From: an uncultured Gammaproteobacteria bacterium
GTDB taxonomy: Bacteria; Patescibacteriota; Microgenomatia; UBA8517
DNA length: 64,000 nucleotides
Direction of reading: 5' to 3'
Assembly: GCA_964488535.1 (NCBI GenBank)
Contig: CAZAUT010000003.1
Coordinates: 2,232-66,231, forward strand
How positions within the stretch are numbered: the stretch's first letter is position 1; the number at the start of each line of letters is the position of its first letter. The notes under the pieces were generated by a model, which worked only from the letters and a program-made list of their open reading frames with translations, had not been told where the DNA came from and did not search any database. Shown piece after piece: positions 642 through 52,099 of the stretch. A program made the position numbers and the translations under genes.

Positions 642-1442
642 TTACTTCACAAATGGTACAAAATGAAATGTTCCAAATTCCTCCCTTGCCCTACGAAGCC
701 TTGGCGAAGTGGGGTTATTTATATCACTAACTGTTAAGCCACGTTTTTTCGTAATTCGAACCATCGTCTTATCCCTTCCTTTTCCCAACGGAGCCACAAG
801 TACTCCCCCGACTTTCAATTGTTTAAATAATTCCTCCGGTACATTTTCAACCCCGGCAGTTATAATTATCGCGTCGTACAGAGAGTGTTCTTTCCACCCC
901 CACTCCCCGCTTCCCGTTCTTACAAATACATTCCTATACCCCAACCTTGAAAGGTTGTTCCCTGCAAGGTGTGAGAGTTCGGAAATAATTTCCACCGTAT
1001 AGACCTTGTTAAAAAAGTACGACAGCACCGCTGCCTGATATCCGCTTCCCGTCCCAATCTCTAAAACACATGTATTACGTATAAAGTATTTTGTATTAAG
1101 TATTTCTTTATCTCTTTCATATATTTGAGTTATTCGTTTCAGTTTTGCGTTTGTAATTTGGAGATTCTTTCGGATTTCGGATTTCGAATTTCGAATTTCC
1201 GTTGCAAGTTGTGTCATCTTTGCAACGGTGTACGGTTGACTCATCGTCTGTCCGTATCCAATATCAACGGGGTAATCATCGTAGGCGATATTCCAGTACT
1301 TCTTCGGAACAAACTCGTGCCGGGGAACTTGAAGCATTACATCTAAGACGCGTTCATCTTTGAAGCCATATTTTTTCCGAATGGTTTTTACCATCTGACA
1401 ACGTCTATCCTTATAAGGATTGTGTCTGTTGTTTTCTGTCAT
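642..1442 (-). CDS. pcm: protein-L-isoaspartate O-methyltransferase, carrying in-frame repeat insertions
   Basis: Motifs GYGQTMSQP, VLEIGTGSGYQAAVL, YDAIIITAG and LKVGGVLVAP. It contains a tandem SKSEIRNSKSEIRK segment and a palindromic-element insertion near the C-terminus. Confidence 0.8.
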   Translation of the reverse strand: MTENNRHNPYKDRRCQMVKTIRKKYGFKDERVLDVMLQVPRHEFVPKKYWNIAYDDYPVDIGYGQTMSQPYTVAKMTQLATEIRNSKSEIRKNLQITNAKLKRITQIYERDKEILNTKYFIRNTCVLEIGTGSGYQAAVLSYFFNKVYTVEIISELSHLAGNNLSRLGYRNVFVRTGSGEWGWKEHSLYDAIIITAGVENVPEELFKQLKVGGVLVAPLGKGRDKTMVRITKKRGLTVSDINNPTSPRLRRAREEFGTFHFVPFVK

Positions 1443-2989: not shown

Positions 2990-3262
2990 AATTGTTAAAT
3001 GGTTAAATTGTTATTTAGTCAATAAAATATTTTCTATTTTCTGATTTTCCATTTTCTATTACAAATCTCTATTTTTCCTCAACAAGTTTCCATTTCCTGT
3101 TTTTTCTCCTAATATCCTAGTATCGTAATATCCTAATATCTTTTTTATTTTCCTATTCTACTTATTCTACTTTATCTACTTATTCTACTTTTTCTCCTAA
3201 GCACTTGATCACTTCCTATTTTTTCTCCTAATATCCTAGTATCATAATATCTTAATATCATC
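2990..3262. repeat. intergenic period ~8 tandem-repeat array (cctaatat / ctattttc / tacttattc families)
   Basis: Direct reading shows degenerate tandem units such as tcctaatatcctagtatcgtaatatcc and ttctacttattctactttatctac. Confidence 0.6.
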
Positions 3263-6037: not shown

Positions 6038-7870
6038 CTATCTCCCCTGAAGCCCGAAAAGCATCTTTATTTCCTGAAGCGTTGTCGCTTCCTTTACGCT
6101 TTTATCTTCTCTAAACTTAACAAGTCTCGGAAAGCGAAGGGCATATCCGCTTGTGTGAATCGGGCTTTTGGTCAAGTCATCTCCCGCAAGCTCAACCACA
6201 AACTTTGGCTCAACCCAAAAATCGGGAGTGTAGTTTTTGTGCGCCTCATACTCTTTCGGCTTTTCTCTTACTTCTAATCGCTTAAGCCTTATTGCTAACT
6301 CTCTAAATTCTTCATCCGTTAAGCCCGTTCCTATTTTGGTTAAAGTTAATATCCTCCCCTCGCCCACCGTAGCCTTGCGCGAAGGCGGGTCAACAACTCC
6401 CACCAAAAATTGTCCTAAACCGAACGACGCCCTTTTACCTTTGCCGACGGTATAGCCCATGACTACGCAGTCAACCGTATCCGAAAGTTTTCCCACCGCT
6501 TCCTCTCCCTGCTTCATTTTTACCCACCGCCAGCCGGTCCGTCCCGAAACATATTTGCTATCATACTTCTTGATAAATATTCCTTCCAAGCCATCTTTGA
6601 TTTTTTTTCTGTATTCGTTATTTATAACTTCAGGATCTTCAGTCACTACCATCGCGTCAACAACCAATAAATTATTTTCCTTGGAAATTATATTCTCTAA
6701 AAGTTTTCTTCTTTTATAATACGGCTCGTTCATCATATTTTTTCCGTCGCAATACAAAACATCAAATACCTGAAAGCTTAAAGGCACTGCTTCGCAGGTA
6801 ACAGAAATCTGATGCACCCTCCTTCTTTTCATCGTCGTCTGGAAATCGGCAAATTTTTTCATTTCGGGATCCATCCCAACGGCTTCGGAATCGAGAATTA
6901 CTTCGCTGCAATTTACATATTTCCCGATTTCCGAAAGTTCCGGAAACATCTCCGTCACATCATTTGAGTTTCTGGTAAATGCTTTTATAAATACATTAGT
7001 TTGTTCGTGATTCGCATGCTTCGTTTCTTCGTTGTTTTGAATTTTTAATTTTTGTTTTGAGTTTTGAGTTTTAAGTTTTGAGCTTTTATAGTGGATTAAA
7101 ACACGAAGTCCGTCAAACTTCGGCTCGATTGCCACTTTACCCATTTTTTCGATCATTTCGGCAGGTGACTTTATCCTTTGTCCGAGCATCGGAAGAACCG
7201 GAACTCCGACAACGGGGGTTACGTTTTTACACGTCTCGTCAATTCCCCTGAGCTTTACACTTTTAGCTAATAGCCCTACATCCGGTAAAATATTGTAGGC
7301 CTCTTCTATCTTCTTACTCTCACTCTTCCCCCCCGTTTCCATCCAGGAAAGCGCATCAATGATTGTCTTATCAGAAAAACCCAAACGCAATTTGCCAACA
7401 GGAATTCTTGCCAAATACCGGGCTGAAAGCGGATCAACACTTTTCAATAATTCCGCCAATTTATCAATTTTTCTTTCAACACTTCCCCCACCCTCGTCCA
7501 CCGCAATCTTATAAAGTACATCATATACTTCGTCAACTGAAGAATTTGTTTTCTGCTTTCTGTTTATTGTTTCTTGTGCAAGCAGCTCCGTCACTATTCC
7601 CAAATCTCCTTTTACTTTATATTCCCGTACCACATCCTCCACTTCACTTCCATACGCCTTCGCCACCGCCTGTATCACCAATTTGTCCGCCATATTAAAG
7701 ACAATTCCTTTGTAGTTTGGAGCAAGTCCGCCAAGGGCTAGATAGCAAATTTTGTCTATTTCATCAGGTGAAGATGTTTTAAAAAGTTCCGCCAGTATTC
7801 TCGTGATCTCAAGACGGGAGGGCGTACTTTCAAGTCGTTGAAGAAAAATCGAAAATTGCGAAAAAGTCAT
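6038..7870 (-). CDS. ATP-dependent DNA ligase, carrying in-frame repeat insertions
   Basis: KxDG adenylation motif (IEPKFDGLRV) plus downstream ligase motifs. A low-complexity insertion KLKTQNSKQKLKIQNNEETK is encoded by gttttgag repeats, and a palindromic-element insertion gives DPPSRKATVGEG. Confidence 0.8.
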   Translation of the reverse strand: MTFSQFSIFLQRLESTPSRLEITRILAELFKTSSPDEIDKICYLALGGLAPNYKGIVFNMADKLVIQAVAKAYGSEVEDVVREYKVKGDLGIVTELLAQETINRKQKTNSSVDEVYDVLYKIAVDEGGGSVERKIDKLAELLKSVDPLSARYLARIPVGKLRLGFSDKTIIDALSWMETGGKSESKKIEEAYNILPDVGLLAKSVKLRGIDETCKNVTPVVGVPVLPMLGQRIKSPAEMIEKMGKVAIEPKFDGLRVLIHYKSSKLKTQNSKQKLKIQNNEETKHANHEQTNVFIKAFTRNSNDVTEMFPELSEIGKYVNCSEVILDSEAVGMDPEMKKFADFQTTMKRRRVHQISVTCEAVPLSFQVFDVLYCDGKNMMNEPYYKRRKLLENIISKENNLLVVDAMVVTEDPEVINNEYRKKIKDGLEGIFIKKYDSKYVSGRTGWRWVKMKQGEEAVGKLSDTVDCVVMGYTVGKGKRASFGLGQFLVGVVDPPSRKATVGEGRILTLTKIGTGLTDEEFRELAIRLKRLEVREKPKEYEAHKNYTPDFWVEPKFVVELAGDDLTKSPIHTSGYALRFPRLVKFREDKSVKEATTLQEIKMLFGLQGR

Positions 7871-8057
7871 AAGCTATTATAAATCCTAAATCCTAATTTC
7901 CAAATCCTAAATAATTTTCAAATGTTCAATACAAAATTTTTTAGGATCCTTATATATTTGAATTTAAATATTAGAGTTTGTTTAGAATTTAGAGTTTAGT
8001 GCTTAGAATTTATCTTTGTAACCATCAGCTGAACTAATTCCGATCAGTTGATTTGTA
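7871..8057. repeat. inverted-repeat element of the aaatcctaaat ... tttagaatttag family
   Basis: aaatcctaaatcctaatttccaaatcctaaat and tttgtttagaatttagagtttagtgcttagaattt are reverse complements. The same family sits upstream of nrdR at 47165-47300. Confidence 0.5.
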
Positions 8058-8334: not shown

Positions 8335-8718
8335 CTATCTTTTTCTGGAATTGGAAATAATCCTACTAACTATGGCTACAATTTCTTCCCCTTCTTTAAT
8401 CAAAACACTTATTTTATCTTTAAAGATAATATTTAATTCGTACAAAAGTTTTAACCAATAAACGCTTTCTTTACCCTCTTTTCTTACCGTTGTAAAATTA
8501 TGAACAAAATCTTTCGAGGAAGATACTCCATCGGCTTCCTCGGAATTGGCGCCCATTGAAGTTGAAGACCGCAACAATTGTCCAATAACAATTTTATTTT
8601 CATCCGATTTAGGAAGCGACTTTGTTAATTTAATGACACTGATCACAAACATAAAAATTCGCCTATAAATATTGTATTTTCTGTTTTTAATTGGTAATTG
8701 GTACTTATTGGTGTTCAT
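8335..8718 (-). CDS. four-helix-bundle protein (Avd / 23S rRNA intervening-sequence protein family)
   Basis: GQLLRSSTSMGANSEEA and ESVYWLKLL motifs of the family. The true start is probably the internal Met (MFVISV, near 8652). Confidence 0.65.
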   Translation of the reverse strand: MNTNKYQLPIKNRKYNIYRRIFMFVISVIKLTKSLPKSDENKIVIGQLLRSSTSMGANSEEADGVSSSKDFVHNFTTVRKEGKESVYWLKLLYELNIIFKDKISVLIKEGEEIVAIVSRIISNSRKR

Positions 8719-8734
8719 TGGTATTTATTGGTAT

Positions 8735-9796
8735 TTATTTTGTAATTACATACCTCGCTGCTTTCGTCTTTCCTTCTTTCTTAATAATCTTATTTTCGAT
8801 CAGATAGTTCATGTCACGAAGAACTGTGTCTTCCGATACCATCGGGAAAAGTCTTTTTAGTTCCCCCATTCCGACATATCCGACCTCGCCCATGTGTTCA
8901 ATCAATTTCATCTGCCGTTCAGTAAGAGCGATCTGGTTCCCGATCAAGCCTTTAAGACGGGAATCAACGGAGAGTTTTCTAATTCTTTCTTTTATTTTCG
9001 TTAATTCAATAGCCACCACCTGGGTAAAGTACTCAAGCCACTCCGTCAGATCTTTTTCAAAAACATCACCCTGTTGTGAATCCGTCTTTTCAAAGGCTTC
9101 ATAATAACTTGCAGGGTCGGCGTCAAAATGCTCTTCAAGGGAGAAAAAGCTTTTTATATCATAGTTCTCCCTCATTAATACAAGAGTTGAAAAAGCTCTG
9201 ACTGTCCTTCCATTTCCTTCCACAAAAGGGTGGATAGAAACAAGAATATAATGAACAATTCCCGCCTTCAATATTGGATGTTCCTCCCGTGTATAAGGGC
9301 TATTTAACCATGCAATAAACTGCTCCAAAAGTATCGGCACTCTGGGAAAATTTGGCGGTTGAAAAACAATTTTTCCGCTGCCTTCTTCCTTAATAACAAC
9401 TTCACTTTTTCGCAATATCCCGCTTTTTTCGGGCGCAACAACCTTATCTACCGTTTCTTTGTGAATGTCGGTCAACATCGAAATTTCATACCCCCCCCGT
9501 TTTTCTTTCAGTTCATCCAGGAGTCCGACAACCCTCCTGTAATTTATGACTTCCTGGACATCGCGCTCTCTGGCAAATATCTCTTGTCCCTCCAACACCT
9601 GCCTCGCCTGGTCAATATTAAGGTCGTTTCCCTCCAAATGCGTACCGTGGTGAACGGTCCGCAATATAGCTTCGCTTTTAAATCTCTTTTCGTACAAGGG
9701 AACCAAGGGGGCATTTTCGATAACCTCTTTGGCAGCCTCAATCGCGCCGATGTTTCGAAGAATTTTGTTTGTAATTACAAACTTAGGTTCAAACAT
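8735..9796 (-). CDS. Fic/DOC family protein with C-terminal winged-HTH
   Basis: Canonical Fic motif HPFVEGNGRTVR, and a C-terminal wHTH-like segment. Confidence 0.8.
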   Translation of the reverse strand: MFEPKFVITNKILRNIGAIEAAKEVIENAPLVPLYEKRFKSEAILRTVHHGTHLEGNDLNIDQARQVLEGQEIFARERDVQEVINYRRVVGLLDELKEKRGGYEISMLTDIHKETVDKVVAPEKSGILRKSEVVIKEEGSGKIVFQPPNFPRVPILLEQFIAWLNSPYTREEHPILKAGIVHYILVSIHPFVEGNGRTVRAFSTLVLMRENYDIKSFFSLEEHFDADPASYYEAFEKTDSQQGDVFEKDLTEWLEYFTQVVAIELTKIKERIRKLSVDSRLKGLIGNQIALTERQMKLIEHMGEVGYVGMGELKRLFPMVSEDTVLRDMNYLIENKIIKKEGKTKAARYVITK

Positions 9797-11169: not shown

Positions 11170-11262
11170 AATGGATAAGTCCCGTAGCCACGCTCTTGCG
11201 ACGCGAGGACGTAGACCTCGGGAGCAAGTAAGTGTGGTATCGGGAACCATTATCCTCCCCGC
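11170..11262 (-). ncRNA. conserved ~90-nt noncoding element, copy E1 (putative sRNA, leader or miniature element)
   Basis: It shares gcgaggaYgtaRacctcgRgagMaag and gtaagtgtgKtat blocks with the copies at 29590-29700 and 18800-18930. Each copy lies immediately 5' of a minus-strand gene. Confidence 0.3.
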
Positions 11263-12151: not shown

Positions 12152-13450
12152 TTATATCTTAATAATCTTCCCCTCCACTCCCTCTATGTAGTGTGGGTCT
12201 GCTGTAGTTATTAAAGTTTGCTGTTTATCTACAATTCCCATCACAACATCCCTATGTTCATGATCGAGTTCTGAAAAAATGTCATCAAGTAATAGAACCG
12301 GCTTATCACCCGTAATACTTTCAATATACGACAGTTCCGCAAGTTTCAGCCAAAGTATTCCCATTCGGGCTTCTCCTCGAGAACCGTATGTAGCAAGATT
12401 TCGAGTAGAATATTTTCCATTTTCCATTTTCTCCCGCAGGACGGGATCCTGCTCCGCAGGAAATTTTCCATTTATTCCCTTTTCTTTTACTCTTCTACTC
12501 TCCTGCTCTTCCACTCTAAAAACGAAATCATCCCTATGCGGTCCTACCAGCGTCGTCCCCGCCGCTACCTCCTCGTTTTCATATTGCTTCAGCCGTCCTT
12601 CACTTATAACACTACTATCATACTGTAAGCTGTAGACCGTCGACTGTAGACTTGTATCTATTTTCCCTTTCCCCCTTTCTTTATTTCTTAAGTTCTTTGT
12701 ATTATTTTTATATATTGGAAATTGGTGCTCATTGGTATTTATTGGATATTGGTATTTATTTATGTAATCGATTAGTTCCCCCCTCTTTTCGGTAATGTAA
12801 TTTCCATGTTTTATAAGGAGTTTATCCCAATACATCAACTGCCCACGGGACAAATTCTCATCCCTTATCCGAAGTAAGAGCCGATTTCTCTGCCGAAGCC
12901 CTTTTTCGTAGATCATCACCGATCTTCGGTATTCACGATCGGTCTGCGACAAAACCGAATCAAGAAATCTTCGCCGAAGCGATGGTGAAGCCGTCACCAA
13001 ATCCATGTCCCATGGACCAAAGAGAACTACCTTCAGATTCCCTGCAAAATCCAAAAGTCTCTTTGCAACTCCATTAACCATTAGTTTTTTTCTCTGCGCC
13101 CTCTGTACTCCTCCGCCATGCAATTCTATTTCACCGTTGGTTAAAACCACCTCTAGGTTTGTATTATGTATTATGTATTTTGTATTATGCGTATTTTCGC
13201 TTAATACATTATTCATGATACTTAATACTGCGGAGACACGAGCAATGCTCGTGTTGTAGCTTATCATCTCCCCCTCCACCCTTGCTTTAAAACTCTTTCC
13301 CGTTGCCAAAAGATAAATTGCTTCCAAAATATTGGTTTTTCCCACAGCATTATCTCCGACAACAATCGTCGTCTTATCCGAAAATTCAAATTTCTTTTTG
13401 CTAAAATTCCTGAAGTTGGTAAGCATCAAATGTTTAATAAACATAATCAA
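12152..13450 (-). CDS. recF: DNA replication and repair protein RecF, carrying in-frame repeat insertions
   Basis: N-terminus LTNFRNF ... VGDNAVGKTNILEAI (Walker A) and a C-terminal LLLDDIFSELD signature. Several in-frame segments are encoded by the ttggtatttattgg, gtattatgtat and tcttctactc repeat families. Confidence 0.8.
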   Translation of the reverse strand: MIMFIKHLMLTNFRNFSKKKFEFSDKTTIVVGDNAVGKTNILEAIYLLATGKSFKARVEGEMISYNTSIARVSAVLSIMNNVLSENTHNTKYIIHNTNLEVVLTNGEIELHGGGVQRAQRKKLMVNGVAKRLLDFAGNLKVVLFGPWDMDLVTASPSLRRRFLDSVLSQTDREYRRSVMIYEKGLRQRNRLLLRIRDENLSRGQLMYWDKLLIKHGNYITEKRGELIDYINKYQYPINTNEHQFPIYKNNTKNLRNKERGKGKIDTSLQSTVYSLQYDSSVISEGRLKQYENEEVAAGTTLVGPHRDDFVFRVEEQESRRVKEKGINGKFPAEQDPVLREKMENGKYSTRNLATYGSRGEARMGILWLKLAELSYIESITGDKPVLLLDDIFSELDHEHRDVVMGIVDKQQTLITTADPHYIEGVEGKIIKI

Positions 13451-17844: not shown

Positions 17845-18780
17845 CTATTTCTGACAATTAGGACACATGTATGTCCCCCTCCCTCCAAGTTTTATTTTTA
17901 CAATCGGTGTTTTACATCGATTGCAGGGTTCCCCCTCCCGCCCGTAAACAAGCGTAAAATCCTGATAGTGTCCTTCACTTCCGTCGGGGGTCACAAATGC
18001 CTGCTCACTGGCACCTCCTTTTTTTATCCCCTCTTTCAGAACTGTCTCTATCGCCTTAAATAACTTAATCACTCGATCACTTGATAACTCAATCGCTTTT
18101 TCCTTCGGATTTATTCCCGCAAGCCACAAAGCATCATTAGCATAAATATTCCCTACCCCCGCCATCTTCGTCTGGTCCATTAAAAGTATTTTTATCGGCT
18201 TTTTGCTCTTTGAGAGAATCTCCGAAAAATCTTTCTCCCTCAAATCCCTCAAAAACTCCTTCCCCAATTTTTTTATGAAGTTTTGAGTTTTGACTTTTGA
18301 ACTTTGAGTTAGTTCCATCCACCCAAACCTCCTGTAATCATTAAAATAAAGAACCGCCCCTTGCCCTTCCGTAGCCTTGTGCGAAGGAGGGTCGTCTAAA
18401 TGAAAAATTACATGTGTGTGTTTCCCCGCCTTCGCCACTCCTTCTTTTAAACGTTCGGGGTTCACATATGCTTCGGCGGGCAAGCCAGGAACTCCCCCAA
18501 CTACCTTGGGCGATAGTTTTTTGTTTTCTGTTTTCTGTTTATTCCTGTAAATAAACTGTCCCGTCATTTTGACGTGGGTCACAATGGAGTACCCGTTTGA
18601 CAAATCCATAACCAACACCTTTCCAAATCTTCTGACACTTGTAATCTTTGCTCCAATTAGTTTTGTCCTATCCCATACCCCGTACTTCGTAATTCTTAAT
18701 TCAAAATTGACTATCGTATGTCCGACAAGAAACCTCTCAAGCTGAACACGTATACTTTCCACCTCTGGCAATTCTGGCAT
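17845..18780 (-). CDS. mutM: formamidopyrimidine-DNA glycosylase (Fpg/MutM), carrying in-frame insertions
   Basis: N-terminus MPELPEVE and a C-terminal zinc finger CNRCKTPIVK...CPNCQ. It has a DPPSHKATEGQG palindromic-element insertion and a gttttgag-repeat insertion. Confidence 0.8.
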   Translation of the reverse strand: MPELPEVESIRVQLERFLVGHTIVNFELRITKYGVWDRTKLIGAKITSVRRFGKVLVMDLSNGYSIVTHVKMTGQFIYRNKQKTENKKLSPKVVGGVPGLPAEAYVNPERLKEGVAKAGKHTHVIFHLDDPPSHKATEGQGAVLYFNDYRRFGWMELTQSSKVKTQNFIKKLGKEFLRDLREKDFSEILSKSKKPIKILLMDQTKMAGVGNIYANDALWLAGINPKEKAIELSSDRVIKLFKAIETVLKEGIKKGGASEQAFVTPDGSEGHYQDFTLVYGREGEPCNRCKTPIVKIKLGGRGTYMCPNCQK

Positions 18781-18799
18781 GATACTATTTTAACAGATT

Positions 18800-18930
18800 T
18801 CTACCCCTCGAAGCCCAGCTTAGTGGGGCGAAGTAGGACAACTCTTTCCCTGTAACCATGCCCCTCGCGAGCGCGAAGCTGTAAGATTCTGGCACGGGGT
18901 AAGTGTGTTATGGAGTCGGGTAATTCGGGC
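18800..18930 (-). ncRNA. conserved noncoding element, copy E3, upstream of fpg
   Basis: It shares gcgaagctgtaag..cacggggtaagtgtgttat blocks with E1 and E2. It also contains a copy of the cgaagcc..ggcgaag palindromic element. Confidence 0.3.
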
Positions 18931-19303: not shown

Positions 19304-20515
19304 TTAAATCACTTTTTTAATTTCCTTAACAAATTTCTCTTTTGAAAACCTTTTTGCATTGTTCATTATAACCTGCCTGTTCCACTTAATTTTTTCAAAT
19401 CTTTTTATCGCATTTAAAATACTTTTTGTATCATCGCTGTTAACAAATAATCCGGTTATTTCGTCAACTACACTTTCTTTGAATCCTCCGCCATTATATG
19501 CAATAACGGGACAACCTGCAGCCTGCGCTTCAACCGCTGTCATTCCAAAATCCTCATTCTTGGCAAGAGCAATAAAACCTTTTGCATTCGAATACAGTTC
19601 CCACAATTTTTCATCACTTACTCTCCCCATAAATTCAATGTTTCTGAATTTATGTTCCTTAATTCTTGATTCAACATCTGAATACCCCGCCGCCTCCCCT
19701 ACAATCTTCAGTTTGTATTTCCCATCCAATTTTGAAAATGCATCAACCGCATTTTCAATTCCTTTCGCTCCCACCAACCTCGAAACAATTAAGAAGTATT
19801 TCTTATCTTTTTTTCCCTTAATTCTTGCTTGCCCTTCGAAGCCTTGGCGAAGGAGGGATACACGATACTTGATACTTTCCGTATCCACCGGCGGATAAAT
19901 AACTACCGAATCTCTTTTATAAAATTTGTCTATTCTTCTTTTGACATTTGCTGAATTCGCAATAAACAAATCCACTCCAGCTGTTATTTTTTGTTTATTG
20001 CTTATTGCTTTTTGCTTACTGCCGTATGGCATTTGTGCTGTCTTAAAATCATACTGACGTAAAAAATGTCCGACAATAGAAGCATAAATTTTTACCGGCC
20101 AGTACTTTGTAAAGCCAACCGATGTTTCATATCCATAAAGCCATCGTGGCGGTGTATGACAATAAGCTATCACTTTGGTGTGCGGTCCAATTTTAAATCC
20201 CCGGGTTATATACCAGCTGCAAGAAGTAATAACCAAGTCATATTTTGATAAATCCAAACTACCCCAAATTAACGGAATTAAAAATCTTAAGGGGCTATAC
20301 AATTTCCAAATTTTTAAAATTGGTGCCAACCAACTTTCGTGTATTTCCGCATCCGGAAATTCTTTTTGAGCAGTACTACCTTTAACCGTAAATGCGGTAT
20401 AAATAGGCGCATTTGGGTACATTTCTATTAATACCTTCAATACGCGTTCAGCCCCTCCAAATTCTTTAATGTAGTCATGCACAAGCGCCACGCGCTTGTG
20501 TGTATTATGTATCAT
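19304..20515 (-). CDS. glycosyltransferase family 4 (group 1), carrying an in-frame palindromic-element insertion
   Basis: EDFGMTAVEAQAAGCPVIAYNGGG signature. The insertion LLRQGFEGQA is encoded by cccttcgaagccttggcgaaggaggg. Confidence 0.75.
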   Translation of the reverse strand: MIHNTHKRVALVHDYIKEFGGAERVLKVLIEMYPNAPIYTAFTVKGSTAQKEFPDAEIHESWLAPILKIWKLYSPLRFLIPLIWGSLDLSKYDLVITSCSWYITRGFKIGPHTKVIAYCHTPPRWLYGYETSVGFTKYWPVKIYASIVGHFLRQYDFKTAQMPYGSKQKAISNKQKITAGVDLFIANSANVKRRIDKFYKRDSVVIYPPVDTESIKYRVSLLRQGFEGQARIKGKKDKKYFLIVSRLVGAKGIENAVDAFSKLDGKYKLKIVGEAAGYSDVESRIKEHKFRNIEFMGRVSDEKLWELYSNAKGFIALAKNEDFGMTAVEAQAAGCPVIAYNGGGFKESVVDEITGLFVNSDDTKSILNAIKRFEKIKWNRQVIMNNAKRFSKEKFVKEIKKVI

Positions 20516-28300: not shown

Positions 28301-28930
28301 TTAACTCTCCTTTACATATCCGGCAAAAATAATCGCATCGCCCCGCAGATGGTCAAACCCATTTCCCTTAATTGCGATCGAATCAAATTTTTTGATGTCG
28401 CCATACAAACTCGAGCCGCCATATCGTCCTCTATCAAACGGACCAATCTCTGACATCTGCAAATTTCTCGTTCCAATCAATTCAGCAATCTCCACAGACA
28501 TATGAAAATCATAATGAGAAATTTTCTCTCCAAGTTTTCGCATAATAAATGATTGTGTATGAAAAGCCAAAACATCTGAACCACATTCTCTTATATCGTT
28601 TTCTAAAAATGTCTTCGCAAATCCATTTCCCCGCACCGACTCTGACGTTATAATTCCTTCAAGGTGATATACACTCATATTTCGATAAAATCTCAAGCTT
28701 GTTGCTATAAACGCAACCGATTTACCGTTTTTATCTTGAGCTATCCTCAATCTATCACAATCAATCACATGGTCATAAACATCTTTATACAAAGCATCTG
28801 TAACGGTTCTCATAAAACCTTCTGCTGTTAATGGTGTAAGTGAAAGAGCCAAATTGTGTTTATGATTTTCGGATAAAGTTTCTTTTGGTCTTATAATTAC
28901 TTCGCCAAAGTACCCCCTGCCCTTCGACAT
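28301..28930 (-). CDS. putative GNAT-family acetyltransferase
   Basis: HLEGIITSESVRGNGFAKTFL resembles GNAT motif A. The call is weak. Confidence 0.35.
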   Translation of the reverse strand: MSKGRGYFGEVIIRPKETLSENHKHNLALSLTPLTAEGFMRTVTDALYKDVYDHVIDCDRLRIAQDKNGKSVAFIATSLRFYRNMSVYHLEGIITSESVRGNGFAKTFLENDIRECGSDVLAFHTQSFIMRKLGEKISHYDFHMSVEIAELIGTRNLQMSEIGPFDRGRYGGSSLYGDIKKFDSIAIKGNGFDHLRGDAIIFAGYVKES

Positions 28931-29154
28931 TGCTCAGGGTTAATAACCCATTTGCACTCTCAGAGCAAGAGGCTCCTTTCACAATGTTTGGTTCATATTC
29001 TTTTGACATATTTTTTTGTACACCAATAACGCAAAAAACCCTTGCAAAACCACCACAAAATGATGATCTTACAAGGGTTCTTCAATTAAAGCTTATTGCC
29101 GTTCCGCAGCTTTAGCGAAGGACGGTGCCACCTTGTTTTAATATCTTACCCCAA

Positions 29155-29181: not shown

Positions 29182-29455
29182 AAACAGTTCGAATAAGATA
29201 TCCTCATTATTCGGTACTCCGACTGTCTGCCGACATACCGTTGTGACGTGATGACGCTTCACTTGCGTGGTAGACTATCGCCTACCCGGCTCCGGGATCC
29301 CAACCAATCCCTTCACAGCCTTTTTTAAATTATGTTGGTATAGTACCAAAATTTCGAAATAATTGCAAACATACTGAAGTTGAAAAGAATTTTGACATGT
29401 CGATCTGCGATTGCCATAGCGATTTGAAAAATCGGTATGTCGCAAAAATTTGCTG

Positions 29456-29527
29456 TGCCAAGGGAGAGGATCGAACTCTCGACATCGCGCTTATGAAACG
29501 CGCGCTCTACCACTGAGCTACCTTGGC
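29456..29527 (-). tRNA. tRNA-Met (CAT anticodon; elongator Met or Ile2/lysidine type)
   Basis: The minus strand reads GCCAAGGTAGCTCAGTGGTAGAGCGCGCGTTTCATAAGCGCGATGTCGAGAGTTCGATCCTCTCCCTTGGCA. The cloverleaf is complete, with anticodon loop TTCATAA and no GGG/CCC initiator signature in the anticodon stem. Confidence 0.8.
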
Positions 29528-29540: not shown

Positions 29541-29577
29541 CCATGAAACGATTGCTCTACCACTGAGCTACGTTGGC
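29541..29577 (-). pseudogene. truncated 5'-half copy of tRNA-Met, ending in the anticodon loop after CAT
   Basis: The minus strand reads GCCAACGTAGCTCAGTGGTAGAGCAATCGTTTCAT then GGCGC. It lies 12 nt upstream of the intact tRNA-Met. Confidence 0.5.
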
Positions 29578-29589
29578 AAAATTTGTCAT

Positions 29590-29700: not shown

Positions 29701-29906
29701 TTACTAAAGCGTTGTATTAACTTCAATCTTGAAGTATAATTTACCCTGTTCTTTACCATAATTCCTAATTCATAATTCGTAATTCAGGAAAAATGTGCGG
29801 GGTAGTGTCCCGAAAAAATTTCGCTTTGCTCAATTCAACGGGACGAGCAGATGAAACTTCGCATACATTGGTAATTTTAATCGTATTTTAACAACTTAAT
29901 CATATG

Positions 29907-30227
29907 TGCGGGGTAGTGTACGGCTGCACGGAAGGCTCAAAATGGGCTTCCCGCTTAGCGGGATAAATTTGGCTATATCGGTGAAACCTAAGCTTTATAG
30001 AGTATGGCAACGCCGAGGAAAGACTACGTTCAAATTTTATGAAAGTAGAATCCGTAGAGACTATACGCCAAAGCACGTTCATATAAACTGAATGTACAAG
30101 ACATAGTCCGACACTCCCAAATACCTTTTGGTATTTGACAGTAAACTGTATAGTTCATTGCAAGAAATTGGAGATTACAGAATAAGCATAATCTTCCAGA
30201 TCAGGTTCAACTCCTGACCCCGCAACA
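29907..30227 (+). ncRNA. ssrA: tmRNA (SsrA)
   Basis: The 5' acceptor strand TGCGGGG pairs with the 3' CCCCGCA. The 3' T-arm CAGGTTCAACTCCTG is near-identical to the E. coli tmRNA T-arm GGGTTCAACTCCCGC. A candidate tag ORF at 30007-30042 (GCA ACG CCG AGG AAA GAC TAC GTT CAA ATT TTA TGA, giving ATPRKDYVQIL) aligns in position and codons with E. coli ANDENYALAA. Confidence 0.6.
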
Positions 30228-30762: not shown

Positions 30763-31626
30763 ATGACGCAGGTTGTTCTTAAAGACCTTTTGCCCAAATT
30801 CATACAACACCTCAAGGATAATAAAAGATCCCCATCGACAGTATTGGCGTACAAAGCAGACCTCGATCAGCTGGTTTCATTTCTCACAGAGAAAGGTAAA
30901 GTATTGACCGAAGATGTAGAAGCATCCGACATTGAAGGGTTCCGTGATACGCTGCTAGCCAACAAGTATACGCCGAAATCCGTTTCGAGAAAACTAAATG
31001 CCGTAAAAACGTTTTTCAGGTTTTTGACCGACAACAAAATATCTCCCAAAGATCCGTCGTCTTCAGTTTCTCACCCCAAAATCGAGTCAACTATGCCGAA
31101 ATTTTTATCTGCCATTGAATACAGAGCCTTGCGGGATGTGGTCCGAAACGACGCCAGGATAGCTGCAATAATTGAATTGATCTTAGAGGCCGGATTGAGA
31201 ATTTCTGAAGTAGCCGGACTTAAAAGGGAAAACTGCAAAAACCACATCCTTAAAATTGAGGCTTATGCAACTCAGGAAGCTCGGGAAATTCCTCTCAATG
31301 CATCGGCAAAGGCTGCCCTCGACAGGTATCTTAACGAGAGGCCGGATACCAAGTCTCCCTATGTATTCGTAAGTAAAAACGGAAAACCTCTTGCCATAAG
31401 AAATATCAGAGCAGCTATCGACAGATATTTCCAAAAAGCCGAAATTCCCGGATACACCGTAAACGATCTCCGCACTACTTTTGTCGTACAAAACTTAAAA
31501 GCCGGCGTGGATCTTATTCTTCTTTCCCGTGTTTCGGGCCCCAAAAGACTCTCAACGACGGAAAGATATCTTCAGCTTGCCCAAATCACCCAATCGGGCA
31601 AGAAACAGGAGTTGGTGGAGTTGTAA
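30763..31626 (+). CDS. tyrosine site-specific recombinase (XerC/XerD/integrase family), with divergent active-site residues
   Basis: Core-binding N-domain, ARG-I in GLRISEVAGL, DLRTTF in place of HxLRH, and C-terminal LSTTERY carrying the catalytic Tyr. Confidence 0.7.
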   Translation: MTQVVLKDLLPKFIQHLKDNKRSPSTVLAYKADLDQLVSFLTEKGKVLTEDVEASDIEGFRDTLLANKYTPKSVSRKLNAVKTFFRFLTDNKISPKDPSSSVSHPKIESTMPKFLSAIEYRALRDVVRNDARIAAIIELILEAGLRISEVAGLKRENCKNHILKIEAYATQEAREIPLNASAKAALDRYLNERPDTKSPYVFVSKNGKPLAIRNIRAAIDRYFQKAEIPGYTVNDLRTTFVVQNLKAGVDLILLSRVSGPKRLSTTERYLQLAQITQSGKKQELVEL

Positions 31627-31654
31627 ACCCAATAAATTAGCCCAATTAGTCAAA

Positions 31655-32203
31655 TTAGTCCAATTTGCCTAATTTGTAGTTACTTCTTTTTCTGTACAAA
31701 TTTTCACGAAATCCACCTTCCTTCACAAACTTTTCTTGTTTTGACTTCAGCAGTTTGTCCAAAAGATAACCCTGCTTGTAACACAAACAAATCATTAAAT
31801 TTGCAAAATTTTCGGGGTTGTTAAAATCCAATCCTGTCCAATCGGCTAAATCATCCAAAGTAGTTGGTTTACCAACGCTTTCTTTAAAACTCCGTATTCT
31901 TAACACCCGCGGGTCGTTTTTGTCCCATACCGGCAAATTCCTCATCCTTAAAAAATCCTCATAATCCTCCGAAAGTTCCGAATATGAACTTCTGCTGACA
32001 CTATTAAGCATAATGTCGCTGGCTATTGAAAGTTCTTTTGAACCTTCAACAATATTCTGCTTGCCGCTTCTTGCGGCTTGAATCATCTGCTCAACGGTTC
32101 TTTTGAATTTTGGGTGAGACAAAAATCTTTCACAAAAAATGTTTGTTAAATCGTAGATCGTAACTGAAGTTCGATAAACCAGAAGTTCTTTATATCCTCC
32201 CAT
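31655..32203 (-). CDS. four-helix-bundle protein with a C-terminal suffix domain
   Basis: LLVYRTS..IYDLT...QMIQAARSGKQNIVEGS plus a ~70-aa C-terminal extension. Confidence 0.6.
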   Translation of the reverse strand: MGGYKELLVYRTSVTIYDLTNIFCERFLSHPKFKRTVEQMIQAARSGKQNIVEGSKELSIASDIMLNSVSRSSYSELSEDYEDFLRMRNLPVWDKNDPRVLRIRSFKESVGKPTTLDDLADWTGLDFNNPENFANLMICLCYKQGYLLDKLLKSKQEKFVKEGGFRENLYRKRSNYKLGKLD

Positions 32204-32407
32204 TATCTCAAGTTAGCCCAATCGGACAAATTAGTCAAATTCAGATAATCAGCCAAATTAGACAAATTAGCCACACGCCAATAAACCGTTTTTTATTTTC
32301 AACATATTTGTGGCCCGGGATGGGTTCGACCAAGTCTGACTTGGGTTACTCTCCATCGACTTCCATTTTATGACAGATACTAATCTGACATGTCAGAAAT
32401 TGAGATT

Positions 32408-32462: not shown

Positions 32463-32534
32463 GTGGGCTGAGATGGGTTCGAACCATCGACATCTACTTT
32501 ATAAGAGTAGCGCTCTACCACTGAGCTATCAGCC
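32463..32534 (-). tRNA. tRNA-Ile (TAT anticodon)
   Basis: The minus strand reads GGGCTGATAGCTCAGTGGTAGAGCGCTACTCTTATAAAGTAGATGTCGATGGTTCGAACCCATCTCAGCCCA. The cloverleaf is complete, with anticodon loop CTTATAA. Confidence 0.7.
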
Positions 32535-32568
32535 CTTAAATTTATTGACATGTCAAACTCCGTTTGCC

Positions 32569-32602
32569 ATAAGAGTAGCGCTCTACCGCTGAGCTACACG
32601 CC
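32569..32602 (-). pseudogene. 5' half of a split tRNA (GGGCGTGTAGCTCAGCGGTAGAGCGCTACTCTTAT)
   Basis: Acceptor 5' strand, D-arm, anticodon stem, and a loop ending at CTTAT. Its 3' partner lies 125 nt downstream on the minus strand, beyond the intact tRNA-Ile. Confidence 0.45.
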
Positions 32603-32614
32603 CTCAACTTCTGT

Positions 32615-47155: not shown

Positions 47156-47531
47156 ACCTTAATTTATAAATTCTAAATCCTAAACAAATCGAAATTTTTC
47201 AATATCAAATGCATTTAACTTTTCTTTAAGTGAATTTTTATATTTGTTATTTTGTATTTGTTTAGAATTTAGGGTTTAGTGCTTAGAGTTTGCTTGGATT
47301 TCATTCAAGCTTTTCATATATGAAAACGAAAAGTACTACCCGTTGTACTGGTTGTGATGTTCATACACTACCTGTCTTTAGTCAACTATAAGTAACTGTA
47401 TCAAATTACGGCATTTTCCGCACGCCATGAAGCTGAAAATATGTCAATTACCGAAAATTCATGTGGAATTATTATAAGATTAACGCCATATACTCCGAAG
47501 CATGATGATAGACATTCCTCAAAGAAATAAT

Positions 47532-49642: not shown

Positions 49643-52099
49643 GTGTCACAATGTAATATAATATGCAACATGAAGAAGAAAGAAAGACATAAACAAAAAA
49701 CAGGGATCGAAAAGCGAAAAGTAGAAAGCAATAAGAAATTAAAAAGTATATTGAATGTTGTATATCGTATGTTGGGGAAAGCAGTAAACAGAAAGCAGAA
49801 AGCAAAAAACAAGAAAACAGTAAACAAAAAGCAGAAAGCTCTCCTTCGTATGAAGCTACGGACAAGCGAAGTAATTAACAAAAAGCTAAAGACAAGAATC
49901 CCGCGGAAATCTTTTTTGCATAATAAAAAATTCCGCATCATTATCGCCTGTGGTCTATTGACTGCAGTCGTTGCCTTCACAACGTGGCTTTTTTGGGGAC
50001 TTCCCCTTCCTACAAAACTACTGAAATCACAGGTTCCGGTTTCCACAAAATTATATGATCGTAACGGAGAACTAATATACGAGATATATGCCGATAAAAG
50101 AAGCTCACCCGTTAATATTGACGAACTGCCGTCCTACGTCATTGACGCCACAATCTCAATTGAAGACAAGGATTTTTACAGACACCACGGCTTCTCAATT
50201 TCCGGTATTACGCGTGCTGCCTATAACACGCTTTTCAAGCAAAAGCTGCAGGGCGGTTCAACTTTAACGCAACAACTGGTGAAGAATGTACTCCTGACGC
50301 CCGAACGTACCGTCAAAAGAAAGATGCGGGAATTGGTAATTACGGTTATCGTCGAAATACTGTATTCCAAAGAGCAAATCCTTGATCTTTATTTTAATCA
50401 GATTCCTTATGGTTCCACCGCTTACGGAATAGGATCCGCAAGTGAATTGTATTTTGATAAAGATGCCAAGGATCTTACTCTTGCAGAAGCTGCACTTTTG
50501 GCAGGAATTACCGCAGCACCGACAAAATACTCTCCCTTTGGGGCTCATCCGGAGATCGCTAAATCAAGACAGGAAATTGTTCTTGCCCGTATGGTCGAGG
50601 ACGGGAAGATAACGCAGGAGGATGCAGATGAGGCCAAATCACAAGAACTGAAATTCGCCGAACCGCAAAAGTTTAACGCTCCTCATTTTTCTCTCTGGGT
50701 AAAAGAACTTCTGGCTGATAAATACGGGGACACACTGGTTGAACAAGGAGGTCTTCGTGTTACAACTACCCTTGATATGGATCTTCAAGAATACGCGGAA
50801 GGCACGGTCTCGGGTGAGTTGGCGAAATTGAAAAAACAAAATGTCGGAAACGGTGCAGTACTTGTCACCCGCCCCGGGTCAGGGGAAATTCTTGCAATGG
50901 TTGGATCAAAAGATTATTTCGCCAAAGACGAAGATGGAAAAGTAAATGTCATTTTTGCCAACCGCCAACCGGGATCATCCATAAAACCCATAAACTATGC
51001 TCTGGCTCTGAAAGACAGAAAGATCACTCTTTCCACTCCCCTGGCTGATGTGCCGACTTGTTTCTCGGTCTACGGACAAAAGGCGTACTGTCCGGTGAAT
51101 TACGACGGATCGTTCCATGGAGCAGTCCAGCCGAGATTTGCATTGGGAAATTCCTACAACAGTCCCGCGGTAAGAGTCTTGGCTCTTAATGGTTTGGAAC
51201 ACTTTATAGATTTTGCCAATCAGATGGGATTAACGACGTTTATTGATCCAAAAAATTACGGATTGTCGCTAACTCTTGGCGGGGGCGAAGTAAAACCGTA
51301 TGACATGGCAACCGCCTTTGGTGTTTTTGCAAACGAGGGAGTAAAAATACCTCTCAATCCGATACTTAAAATTACAGACTGGAAAGGAGAAGTGTACGAA
51401 GAAGTTGATCCCAACAAGATTGACGGAACAAGAGTACTTGATCCTGAAGTGACATTTTTAATCTCTCACACCCTTCACGACAATAATGCAAGATCGGCTG
51501 CTTTCGGCAGCAACTCATACTTGGTAGTCAAAAACCATTCCGAGGTGTCTGTAAAAACCGGAACAACCAACGATAGAAAGGATAACTGGACGATCGGTTA
51601 TACTTCTCAAATTCTTACTCTCGTCTGGGTCGGGAACAATGATAATTCGGAAATGAGCGGAGCCGTTTCCGGTGTCTCAGGAGCATCGCCAATCTGGAAC
51701 TCTGTAATTAAATATGCACTTGATAAGGCCGAAAAAAGCTATTACAACCAAGAAGATGATGGGCACGCCTGGCCGAGACAGCCTGAAGGAATCGTCGGGA
51801 AAAATGTCTGTGCAACAACTGGAAACATACCAACCAATCCTGATTCTCCAGAGTGTGGAACTAGGTTTGAATATTTCATCAAAGACGCAATTGGTGCGAA
51901 TATCCAGGCGGGACAAAAGGATGTACTTGTATTCAAAGATACAAGACAGCTTGCCAATGAAGATGCCCTTCCCGAACAGGTAGAAGTACAAAACCACCCC
52001 TTCCTTCTCGACCCTTTGGGGACTCTTGTCTGTCTCGATTGTCCCCTGGCAAGTTCATCTGCTAAAATCAGCTACCCTTTGATTGCTGCGCCCAACTAA
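49643..52099 (+). CDS. class A penicillin-binding protein (transglycosylase + transpeptidase)
   Basis: GT51 motifs EDKDFYRHHGFS and GGSTLTQQLVKN. Transpeptidase motifs RQPGSSIKP, SYN and KTGTT. Confidence 0.85.
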   Translation: MSQCNIICNMKKKERHKQKTGIEKRKVESNKKLKSILNVVYRMLGKAVNRKQKAKNKKTVNKKQKALLRMKLRTSEVINKKLKTRIPRKSFLHNKKFRIIIACGLLTAVVAFTTWLFWGLPLPTKLLKSQVPVSTKLYDRNGELIYEIYADKRSSPVNIDELPSYVIDATISIEDKDFYRHHGFSISGITRAAYNTLFKQKLQGGSTLTQQLVKNVLLTPERTVKRKMRELVITVIVEILYSKEQILDLYFNQIPYGSTAYGIGSASELYFDKDAKDLTLAEAALLAGITAAPTKYSPFGAHPEIAKSRQEIVLARMVEDGKITQEDADEAKSQELKFAEPQKFNAPHFSLWVKELLADKYGDTLVEQGGLRVTTTLDMDLQEYAEGTVSGELAKLKKQNVGNGAVLVTRPGSGEILAMVGSKDYFAKDEDGKVNVIFANRQPGSSIKPINYALALKDRKITLSTPLADVPTCFSVYGQKAYCPVNYDGSFHGAVQPRFALGNSYNSPAVRVLALNGLEHFIDFANQMGLTTFIDPKNYGLSLTLGGGEVKPYDMATAFGVFANEGVKIPLNPILKITDWKGEVYEEVDPNKIDGTRVLDPEVTFLISHTLHDNNARSAAFGSNSYLVVKNHSEVSVKTGTTNDRKDNWTIGYTSQILTLVWVGNNDNSEMSGAVSGVSGASPIWNSVIKYALDKAEKSYYNQEDDGHAWPRQPEGIVGKNVCATTGNIPTNPDSPECGTRFEYFIKDAIGANIQAGQKDVLVFKDTRQLANEDALPEQVEVQNHPFLLDPLGTLVCLDCPLASSSAKISYPLIAAPN

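What the first reader, a model, noticed from the sequence alone, without database searches (positions are those of the whole stretch)
683..714. A REP/RPE-like imperfect palindrome inserted in-frame in at least four conserved genes
Near-identical ~28-nt elements with core CCTTCG-(A/C)GTAGCCTTG(G/C)GCGAAGG lie inside pcm (683-714), the DNA ligase (6363-6391), fpg (18364-18393) and a GT4 glycosyltransferase (19831-19856). In every case the reading frame is preserved and a short extra peptide is added: NPTSPRLRRARE, DPPSRKATVGEG, DPPSHKATEGQG and LLRQGFEGQA. Intergenic copies exist at 18805-18834 and 29101-29130. This resembles Rickettsia palindromic elements, which colonise protein-coding genes in frame, but I am not aware of it being described for this kind of genome.
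Basis: seen in the sequence. Interest (0 to 1): 0.75.

Follow-up and report, generated by a model that had tools for sequence, protein, structure and literature searches.

The report
Thirty-base hairpin repeat inside genes
A 30-base DNA hairpin repeat sits in frame inside at least four housekeeping genes of this tiny Woesebacteria-like genome, and the same repeat occurs in many bacterial phyla, so it looks like an undescribed, very widespread relative of the REP repeats.

Summary
Four copies of one GC-rich element lie in frame inside pcm, the ATP-dependent DNA ligase, fpg and a GT4 glycosyltransferase. I also found a fifth, expanded copy in fpg, two diverged intergenic copies and one degenerate genic copy.

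Alignments with orthologues show that the copies are lineage-specific insertions in variable loops. The element is read in three frames and in both orientations, so it is a DNA entity and not a peptide motif.

It is not special to this genome.

- **Unit:** CTTG-CCCNNC-GWA-GCY-TT-RGC-GAA-GNNGGG.
- **Structure:** the stems covary strongly, with 93% of cells paired against 31-52% in slid controls.
- **Size:** 82% of copies are exactly 30 nt, that is 10 codons. Four nested copies show a 30-nt insertion with no target duplication.
- **Known families:** there is no Rfam family, and I found no description in the searchable literature.
- **Mobilising enzyme:** no transposase was seen.

The best reading is a new, cross-phylum REP-type hairpin repeat. 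Its size and stop-poor frames let it persist inside genes in gene-dense genomes. The way it moves is inferred, not shown.

The parts
685..714 (+). Canonical 30-nt copy, CTTGCCCTACGAAGCCTTGGCGAAGTGGGG. It lies inside pcm (ORF 642-1442, - strand) and is translated antisense as (N)PTSPRLRRAR(E).
   Evidence: 48.2 bits, E 1.5e-10. The PCMT alignment A5 shows that only the closest orthologue, P0122, has a diverged copy at this site; 20 other orthologues lack it.
6359..6389 (+). 31-nt copy, CTCGCCCACCGTAGCCTTGCGCGAAGGCGGG. It lies inside the ATP-dependent DNA ligase (ORF 6038-7870, - strand); peptide PPSRKATVGEG.
   Evidence: 43.2 bits, E 3.2e-9. It is absent from the syntenic orthologue in L001, which reads VGVLD--GE-EVRT.
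18360..18391 (+). 32-nt copy, CTTGCCCTTCCGTAGCCTTGTGCGAAGGAGGG. It lies inside fpg (ORF 17845-18780, - strand); peptide DPPSHKATEGQG, in the turn between two beta-strands.
   Evidence: 39.2 bits. It is absent from all 21 closer orthologues in alignment A1 and present at the same site in P0050, P0051 and P0056. The empty site in L004 differs by a net +30 nt. In the AF2 model residues 132-140 form a low-confidence loop between strands 122-128 and 142-148.
18425..18484 (-). Second fpg copy, in the opposite orientation, so the hairpin strand is the coding strand. It has normal ends, CTTGCCCGCCGAAGC ... GCGAAGGCGGG, and a loop expanded by about 33 nt. Peptide GLPAEAYVNPERLKEGVAKAG.
   Evidence: sequence. 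Orthologues P0003, P0005 and P0007 carry GLPAE..(6 aa)..KAG at the same site and the others lack it. The covariance model did not detect it because of the long loop.
19828..19857 (+). Canonical 30-nt copy, CTTGCCCTTCGAAGCCTTGGCGAAGGAGGG. It lies inside the GT4 glycosyltransferase (ORF 19304-20515, - strand); peptide LLRQGFEGQA, in the variable interdomain linker.
   Evidence: 48.4 bits, E 1.3e-10. It is absent from the syntenic GT4 of L001 and L003.
29095..29125 (+). Diverged intergenic copy, ATTGCCGTTCCGCAGCTTTAGCGAAGGACGG. It has the TTTA loop variant, and its outer stem is CCG/CGG instead of CCC/GGG, a compensatory change.
   Evidence: 18.9 bits, E 0.0066. It lies between ORF 28301-28930 and tRNA-Met 29455-29527.
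18804..18838 (+). Old, diverged copy with an 11-nt loop in the spacer just upstream of the fpg start codon.
   Evidence: Weak alone (9.2 bits, E 2.2). It aligns with clear copies at the homologous position upstream of fpg in L132 (28.2 bits) and L139 (22.7 bits).
49835..49869 (-). Degenerate copy whose left-arm CCC (the GGG of the host coding strand) is deleted. It lies inside the Lys-rich N-terminal tail of the + strand ORF 49643-52099, again antisense to its host gene; peptide KALLRMKLRTSEV.
   Evidence: (13.3 bits, E 0.19). Tentative.

Best explanation
These are copies of a REP-type repeat: a small, non-coding DNA hairpin that multiplies or has multiplied in genomes.

**Anatomy.** The unit is 30 nt. 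It has a 4-nt 5' tag, CTTG, followed by a 26-nt hairpin. The hairpin has a 6-bp outer stem (CCCNNC/GNNGGG), a purine-rich 3x3 internal loop (GWA/GAA), a 3-bp inner stem (GCY/RGC) and a TT loop.

**Distribution.** The family is spread over many bacterial phyla. In large genomes it sits between genes as singletons, inverted pairs and arrays, like classical REPs. In gene-dense, AT-rich CPR genomes such as this one there is almost no intergenic room.

**Why copies survive inside genes.** The unit is exactly ten codons and is open in most reading frames. Insertions into surface loops and linkers of proteins therefore keep the frame and survive selection as 10-residue decorations. They then decay slowly, and the window copies have weakened stems.

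**Shown:**
- the repeat family;
- the covarying hairpin;
- lineage-specific presence and absence in loops;
- the 30-nt unit without target duplication;
- the use of several frames and both orientations.

**Inferred:**
- It moves as single-stranded DNA through a trans-acting HUH/Y1 (RAYT- or IS200-like) or similar enzyme. This rests on the tag-plus-hairpin build, the absence of duplication, the preference for hairpin loops as targets, and the strand bias.
- The encoded peptides are neutral passengers.
For: **Repeat family.** There are 4 core matches against 0 in shuffles. The covariance model R1 finds 4 strong and 1 significant copy in the window, and 131 hits in 100 loci from other genomes, about 28 of them beyond the seed copies.

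**Hairpin.** In 125 copies, 93% of cells pair, against 31-52% when partners are slid. The covariation score is reached by 0 of 500 shuffles. Three pairs show compensatory changes:
- pair 14-34: GC 43, UA 33, GU 12, AU 9, CG 6;
- pair 15-33: CG 78, AU 10, GC 9, UA 8;
- pair 22-25: CG 60, UA 48.

The right arm and column 25 were not part of the search pattern, so this is an independent test. The consensus folds as drawn, at -10.7 kcal/mol with z -2.6.

**Insertion, not ancestral sequence.** Shown for fpg, the ligase, GT4 and PCMT. Of the six copies in the stretch syntenic with L001, only one is shared.

**DNA entity.** The element is read in three frames and in both orientations, and intergenic copies exist.

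**Unit and boundaries.** 105 of 128 copies are exactly 30 nt. Nested copies in L010, L064, L038 and L020 are exact 30-nt insertions without duplication, three of them in the apical loop of the outer copy. There is no significant flanking repeat.

**REP-like organisation.** Inverted doublets and tandem arrays occur. Geomonas paludis has an intergenic array.

**Hosts elsewhere are diverse housekeeping genes.** They include aminoacyl-tRNA synthetases, LigA, UvrC, TGT and HsdM.

**Strand.** Genic copies run 32 antisense to 12 sense, p = 0.006. At the two variable stem positions G-T outnumbers A-C, about 20 to 5-6 on the tag-bearing strand.

**Precedent.** REP superfamilies shared by several phyla, and intragenic in-frame REPs, are described in PMC3733652.
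Against: - No transposase or RAYT was found among the 34 window ORFs scanned, and none recurs next to copies in 142 loci.
- The window copies all differ from one another and have weakened stems, so nothing shows recent movement here.
- Classical REP families co-evolve with their own RAYT and are species- or genus-specific. A core conserved across phyla is not what that model predicts.
- The same site in fpg is filled in this genome and in a distant clade but empty in all closer relatives. That needs either repeated precise loss, a hot spot, or recombination.
- No pair of near-identical genomes with a filled and an empty site was available, so the absence of target duplication rests on nested copies only.
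Confidence: 0.65

Rival explanations
1. The hairpin spreads without a dedicated enzyme. Possible routes are recombination or gene conversion between copies, templated repair, or replication slippage at a very stable DNA mini-hairpin. Horizontal DNA uptake would seed it across phyla.
For: - No transposase was seen in the window or next to copies.
- CGTC-type REPs, the other cross-phylum family, also lack a dedicated transposase (PMC3733652).
- Tandem arrays with 31-37-nt periods look like slippage products.
- The filled fpg site recurs in distant lineages, which fits recombinational transfer.
Against: - Exact 30-nt insertions into unrelated sites with sharp, constant ends are hard to get from conversion or slippage.
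- No flanking homology is seen at insertion sites.
Confidence: 0.15
2. The hairpin is a host-selected functional signal that happens to be tolerated in coding DNA. It could be a binding site on DNA, for example for a topoisomerase, a nucleoid protein or a replication factor, or an RNA structure that modulates message stability or translation.
For: - The core sequence and the purine-rich internal loop are conserved across phyla, and the stems show compensatory changes. That is the signature of selection on structure.
- A copy has stayed at the same place upstream of fpg in three distant genomes.
- REPs in E. coli are known to bind gyrase (as cited in PMC3733652).
Against: - Copies are patchy between close relatives.
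- Positions within genes are unrelated to one another.
- Window copies have decayed stems, with z about 0.
- In genic copies the G-T wobble strand is mostly antisense to the message, which argues against an mRNA role.
- No Rfam family matches.
Confidence: 0.12
3. The shared segment is a protein-level module, such as a selected flexible peptide or modification site, or simply ancestral coding sequence.
For: - Several hosts use the same frame, giving (P)PSHKA[ST]EG(Q/K) in fpg, LeuRS, SerRS, GT4 and TypA.
- The KASEG reading is the commonest.
Against: - The same DNA is read in three frames and on both strands, giving unrelated peptides.
- Intergenic copies exist.
- Most orthologues lack the segment.
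- What is conserved is base pairing, not codons.
Confidence: 0.03

Closest known systems
REP (repetitive extragenic palindromic) sequences, in particular the GTAG- and CGTC-tagged superfamilies of Di Nocera et al. 2013 (PMC3733652)
   Same: - A 20-40-nt stem-loop with a conserved tetranucleotide tag at one end.
- Stems vary by compensatory changes between subfamilies.
- Copies occur as singletons, inverted dimers and clusters.
- Some families are shared by several phyla.
- Some copies lie in frame inside genes, including DNA repair genes, a DNA ligase and tRNA synthetases.
- CGTC REPs have no dedicated transposase.
   Different: - The tag is CTTG, not GTAG or CGTC.
- The loop is a conserved 14-nt module with its own mini-hairpin and a GWA/GAA internal loop.
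- The same core is kept from 31% to 71% GC genomes in about ten phylum-level groups.
- In CPR genomes most copies are intragenic rather than extragenic.
- No RAYT link was found.
Rickettsia palindromic elements (RPE-1 and relatives; Ogata et al. 2000, from my own knowledge and as cited in PMC3733652)
   Same: - Palindromic repeats inserted in frame into conserved genes of a small genome.
- They add peptide segments at permissive surface positions without destroying the host protein.
   Different: - RPE-1 is roughly 100-150 bp and confined to Rickettsia; there is no sequence similarity.
- RPE-4 and RPE-6 are CGTC-type REPs.
- The present element is 30 nt and cross-phylum.
Mobile GC clusters of yeast mitochondrial DNA, and the very small dispersed repeats of heterocystous cyanobacteria (Elhai et al. 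2008). Both are from my own knowledge and were not checked here.
   Same: - Short GC-rich palindromic units scattered in AT-rich genomes that are also full of short tandem repeats.
- They can lie in frame inside genes and nested in one another.
- Their mechanism of movement is unknown.
   Different: - Different sequences, hosts and sizes.
- Each is restricted to one lineage.
IS200/IS605 ends and their miniature derivatives (single-strand 'peel and paste' transposition by Y1 HUH transposases; PMC6006769)
   Same: - A hairpin plus a short flanking tetranucleotide as the recognised substrate.
- No target duplication.
- Strand-specific behaviour.
   Different: - Those elements need two different ends and a specific target tetranucleotide.
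- Here a single 30-nt hairpin is the whole unit, and only a weak G/C preference at position -1 is seen.

Membership tests
REP sequences | Short (20-40 nt) unit | tested here: met
   105 of 128 copies are 30 nt and the rest are 29-32 nt.
REP sequences | Imperfect palindrome able to form a stem-loop | tested here: met
   93% of cells pair, against 31-52% in slid controls. Three pairs carry compensatory changes. The consensus folds at -10.7 kcal/mol, z -2.6. The window copies alone are not significant.
REP sequences | Many dispersed copies per genome, often as inverted dimers or clusters | tested here: inconclusive
   There are 5-8 copies in this 64-kb window. Doublets, tandems and arrays occur in other genomes. 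Whole-genome counts could not be made.
REP sequences | Extragenic location | tested here: not met
   In the window, 6 of 8 copies lie inside ORFs. In low-GC loci, 44 of 75 copies lie in ORFs of 150 aa or more. The array in Geomonas lies in the spacer between two genes by my reading of the sequence, although ORF listing shows overlapping mechanical ORFs in this GC-rich DNA. Intragenic REPs are nevertheless on record (PMC3733652).
REP sequences (GTAG or CGTC superfamily) | Terminal GTAG or CGTC tag next to the stem | tested here: not met
   The terminal tag is CTTG; in alignment A2, which was ascertained with a pattern that fixes TTGCCC, the free position before it is C in 91 of 125 copies. GTAG occurs only inside the loop module, and in half of the copies it is GAAG.
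REP sequences | Association with a RAYT (Y1 HUH transposase, PF01797) gene | tested here: inconclusive
   None was found among the 34 window ORFs scanned. No gene family recurs near copies in 142 loci. RAYTs are usually single-copy, so only whole genomes could settle this.
Rickettsia palindromic elements | Sequence membership in an RPE family, Rickettsia host, about 100-150 bp (RPE-1) | tested here: not met
   The unit is 30 nt, the host is Woesebacteria-like, and the consensus is unrelated. It only behaves in a similar way.
MITEs | 70-300 bp with terminal inverted repeats and a target-site duplication | tested here: not met
   The unit is 30 nt. There is no duplication at four nested insertions and no significant flanking repeat.
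Any described structured RNA family (Rfam 15) | Match to a curated covariance model | tested here: not met
   Nothing overlaps the elements in the window at gathering score, or in five element-rich loci at E <= 1.

The most novel reading that the evidence does not exclude
This is a third, previously unrecognised REP superfamily, tagged with CTTG and carrying a GCGAAG core.

- It is shared horizontally by a large part of the bacterial domain.
- It is built to live inside genes: exactly ten codons long, free of stop codons in most frames, and inserted without duplication.
- That makes it the main small repeat able to persist in ultra-compact CPR genomes, where it decorates essential enzymes such as tRNA synthetases, ligases and repair enzymes.
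- It would be moved by a still unknown, broadly distributed single-strand DNA enzyme that reads the conserved GWA/GAA internal loop.
Probability: 0.3. Interest if true: 0.8.

Novelty: new variant of a known kind. Interest (0 to 1): 0.64.

Why it matters
**A new repeat class.** If the family is what it seems, it adds a new, easily searchable class to the small palindromic repeats of bacteria. Its core is conserved across phyla, which is hard to reconcile with the current picture of REPs as private partners of one transposase per lineage.

**Protein length variation.** It would explain a share of the puzzling length variation and 'extra loops' in proteins of candidate phyla radiation bacteria. 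It also gives a concrete source of new peptide segments in essential enzymes.

**A practical filter.** The covariance model can flag these segments in protein alignments and structure predictions.

**A route to experiments.** Geomonas paludis Red736, a cultured isolate, carries an array, so the mobilising activity could be tested in the laboratory.

Tried and rejected
It gave 0 hits even with 3 mismatches, because of indels.
- **Single-sequence folding of the window copies.** As DNA and as RNA it was no better than shuffles, so structure had to be tested comparatively.
- **Rfam.** There was no family for the element. A suspected location inside a 23S rRNA gene in L101 was wrong: the copies lie 3.4 kb away from it.
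- **Literature.** String searches for the core DNA and the encoded peptides found only unrelated primers, or nothing. Searches on CPR plus palindromes or REPs found nothing relevant.
- **Close relatives.** The metagenome scan for close fpg relatives, meant to find filled and empty sites at near-identity, gave nothing closer than 61% identity.
- **Companion gene.** All-against-all comparison of ORFs around 142 copies found only class I tRNA synthetases recurring, and they are hosts, not partners.
- **Target-site duplication or stem extension in the flanks.** Not found.
- **Other collections.** Plasmids gave four marginal hits and E. coli genomes none. Viral contigs gave 22 loci, so there is no sign of a plasmid or phage vehicle.
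- **Ideas considered and dropped.**
  - A peptide motif: rejected because three frames are used.
  - A translational bypass or spliced element: the copies are stop-free and in frame.
  - A terminator: there is no T run after the hairpin.
  - A DNA uptake sequence: the distribution is cross-phylum.
  - A group II intron domain V or a small ribozyme: the conserved cores do not match.

Full report
**1. The observation**

Reading the window at the given places shows four closely related GC-rich segments on the + strand, each inside a - strand gene:
- 685-714 in a protein-L-isoaspartate methyltransferase;
- 6359-6389 in an ATP-dependent DNA ligase;
- 18360-18391 in formamidopyrimidine-DNA glycosylase (fpg);
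- 19828-19857 in a family 4 glycosyltransferase (GT4).

The window is about 39% GC, so the segments stand out. The shared core AGCCTTG(N0-2)GCGAAG occurs four times and never in 100 shuffles.

**2. Insertions, and a DNA entity**

The source is a Woesebacteria-like member of the candidate phyla radiation (names given by sources).

*fpg.* The 21 closer orthologues aligned (67-83% identity in the alignment) read LD-RGG-VLYFND, where the window has LDDPPSHKATEGQGAVLYFND. Three more distant orthologues carry the same insert at the same place. At the DNA level the empty site of the closest relative differs by a net 30 nt. Solved Fpg structures align on either side of the region but not across it. 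An AlphaFold model, of only moderate quality (mean pLDDT 59), puts the insert in a low-confidence loop between two strands.

*Ligase and GT4.* The ligase insert and the GT4 insert are absent from the syntenic genes of L001.

*PCMT.* The insert is shared only with the closest orthologue. It lies in a loop that takes many different insertions across the family.

*Frames.* The four copies are read in three different frames.

*A fifth copy.* It lies in fpg at 18425-18484, on the - strand, in the opposite orientation and with an expanded loop. It gives GLPAE...AKAG and is shared with three orthologues.

This rules out a peptide motif and ancestral sequence.

**3. Not confined to this genome**

I scanned one genome per species with TTGCCCN{2,4}GWAGCYTTN{0,2}GCGAAG. 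By my own estimate this pattern should give a few tens of chance matches in the whole collection. By my count of the record titles, the loci divide as follows.

| Group | Loci |
|---|---|
| Patescibacteria | about 50 |
| PVC group | 20 |
| Bacteroidota | 16 |
| Proteobacteria | 15 |
| Acidobacteriota | 7 |
| Unclassified | 6 |
| Cyanobacteria | 2 |
| Nitrospirota, Elusimicrobia, Dependentiae, Geomonas paludis (cultured isolate) | 1 each |

Locus GC runs from 31% to 71%. Some hits lie on multi-megabase chromosomes, so mis-binning cannot explain the spread. A few hits, such as L052, look like chance matches.

The element is rare in viral contigs, with 22 loci. It is nearly absent from plasmids and absent from E. 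coli genomes.

**4. Anatomy**

Aligned copies give the consensus (G/C)-CTTG-CCCNNC-GWA-GCY-TT-RGC-GAA-GNNGGG.

*Covariation.* The bases after GCGAAG and the base closing the inner loop were not specified in the search, yet they pair with their partners. 93% of cells pair, against 31-52% when partners are slid. Three positions show abundant compensatory changes, and no shuffle reaches the observed covariation score.

*Which strand.* At the two variable stem positions, G-T pairs outnumber A-C on the tag-bearing strand by about 20 to 5-6.

*DNA or RNA.* The two loop variants, C-TT-G and T-TT-A, and the G-x-A/G-A-A internal loop are, from my own knowledge of DNA mini-hairpins and sheared G-A motifs, more typical of stable DNA than of RNA. 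That is a lead, not a test.

*Folding.* The consensus folds as drawn (-10.7 kcal/mol, z -2.6). The window copies fold poorly, so they are decayed.

*Known families.* No Rfam family matches.

**5. Unit size and junctions**

105 of 128 copies are exactly 30 nt from CTTG to GGG. Four copies are nested inside other copies (L010, L064, L038, L020). Removing exactly 30 nt restores a normal outer copy, with no duplicated bases. Three of the four sit in the apical loop of the outer copy.

The flanks show only a G/C preference at position -1. There is no significant direct repeat and no stem extension.

Thirty bases is ten codons. The element also has stop-free frames in both orientations (176 sense and 186 antisense open frames summed over 75 copies). 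An insertion therefore keeps the reading frame without any further event.

**6. Genomic setting**

In low-GC loci, 44 of 75 copies lie in ORFs of at least 150 codons. Of these, 32 are antisense and 12 sense to the host, against an expected 51% antisense (p = 0.006). All three frames are used.

Hosts are diverse housekeeping genes:
- Leu-, Val-, Ile-, Ser-, Thr- and Arg-tRNA synthetases;
- NAD-dependent ligase and UvrC;
- tRNA-guanine transglycosylase;
- HsdM;
- a GTPase and a U32 peptidase.

In larger genomes the copies look like ordinary REPs. There are inverted doublets and tandems. In Geomonas paludis about eight full or partial units form an array in a spacer between two genes.

The part of the window syntenic with L001 holds six copies, of which only one is shared. 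So there is turnover between related genomes.

One copy upstream of the fpg start is kept at the same place in three distant genomes.

**7. Mechanism**

What fits a single-strand, HUH-type (RAYT or IS200-like) mobilisation is:
- a tag plus hairpin as the whole unit;
- no duplication;
- loops of hairpins as targets;
- strand asymmetry.

What does not fit, or is missing:
- no such gene among the 34 window ORFs scanned;
- no such gene recurring near copies;
- a core conserved across phyla, whereas REP families normally track their own transposase (PMC6006769; PMC3733652).

The CGTC REP superfamily is a precedent for a multi-phylum family without a dedicated transposase. An insert of that type (..MDSRLRGNDN..) appears, by my reading, in one Woesebacteria Fpg.

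I therefore commit to a REP-type selfish hairpin filtered by selection into permissive protein loops, with confidence 0.65. I treat the enzyme as unknown.

**8. Comparison and novelty**

In-frame palindromic repeats are known: RPEs, and intragenic REPs in Opitutus, Thauera, Xanthomonas and others (PMC3733652). The kind is therefore not new.

What I could not find described is this family. Its distinguishing points are:
- a CTTG tag;
- a conserved 14-nt loop module;
- an exact ten-codon unit;
- a cross-phylum spread;
- predominance inside genes in CPR genomes.

The literature library is incomplete, so prior description cannot be excluded. I rate it a new variant of a known kind, with interest 0.64.

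Noticed in passing
window 1121-1163, 7040-7082, 18266-18308 (genic); 7966-8008, 47246-47288 (intergenic): A second, AT-rich kind of in-frame insert. Runs of a GTTTTGA-like heptamer sit inside pcm, the ligase and fpg, giving Lys/Gln/Asn-rich peptides such as KLKTQNSKQKLKIQNNEETKHANHEQTN. The same repeat fills intergenic spacers. The 23-residue ligase insert is absent from the L001 orthologue.
   Followed up: partly
window, most intergenic spacers, e.g. 1966-2026, 3069-3259, 8668-8750, 31626-31683, 32193-32286: Nearly every spacer is built from short tandem units: octamers ACTCTTCT and ATATCCTA, the 10-mer TTGGTAxTTA and the 9-mer AATTAGTCA. This recalls the short tandem repeats of heterocystous cyanobacteria.
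   Followed up: no
window 29891-30132 (+): A group I intron match just above the Rfam gathering score (51.9 bits, cutoff 50). No obvious host gene was identified. Nearby are tRNA-Met (29455-29527) and tRNA-Ile (32463-32535), partial tRNA duplications (29543-29584, 32569-32610) and a Xer-like tyrosine recombinase gene (30763-31626).
   Followed up: no
L132 38-112; L139 923-994; window 18781-18850: In two distant Woesebacteria-type genomes, a copy of the hairpin lies between a duplicated first ~20 nt of fpg (ATGCCTGARYTNCCNGARG) and the real fpg start. The window keeps the copy and a remnant (GAGTTGTCC) at the same place. This looks like an old insertion near codon 7 that was rescued by a duplicated start.
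   Followed up: partly
Fpg orthologues P0009, P0010, P0015, P0019-P0021, P0025, P0026, P0032, P0036 (alignment A1): Other GC-rich in-frame inserts occur in Woesebacteria Fpg proteins. They include one or two 9-residue units GSPRGGALR, SGSTSSPSRVKS, PASPAGRQ, and ..MDSRLRGNDN.., which reads like a CGTC-type REP. Several repeat families therefore colonise genes in this lineage.
   Followed up: no
window 12430-12461 and 11181-11225: Two further GC-rich palindromic islands unrelated to the element. CTCCCGCAGGACGGGATCCTGCTCCGCAGGA lies inside the RecF/SMC-like ORF 12152-13450, which is 56 residues longer than its L001 counterpart. CCCGTAGCCACGC...GACGTAGACCTCGGG lies in a spacer.
   Followed up: no
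L134 2830-2862; L112; L012; L027: A 31-32-nt subfamily with one extra base in the loop (and in most copies one more in the left arm) is always read in the frame giving (D)PPSHKA[ST]EG(Q/K). It occurs in unrelated hosts: fpg, GT4, LeuRS, SerRS and a TypA-like GTPase. How the frame is kept with a unit that is not a multiple of three is unexplained.
   Followed up: partly
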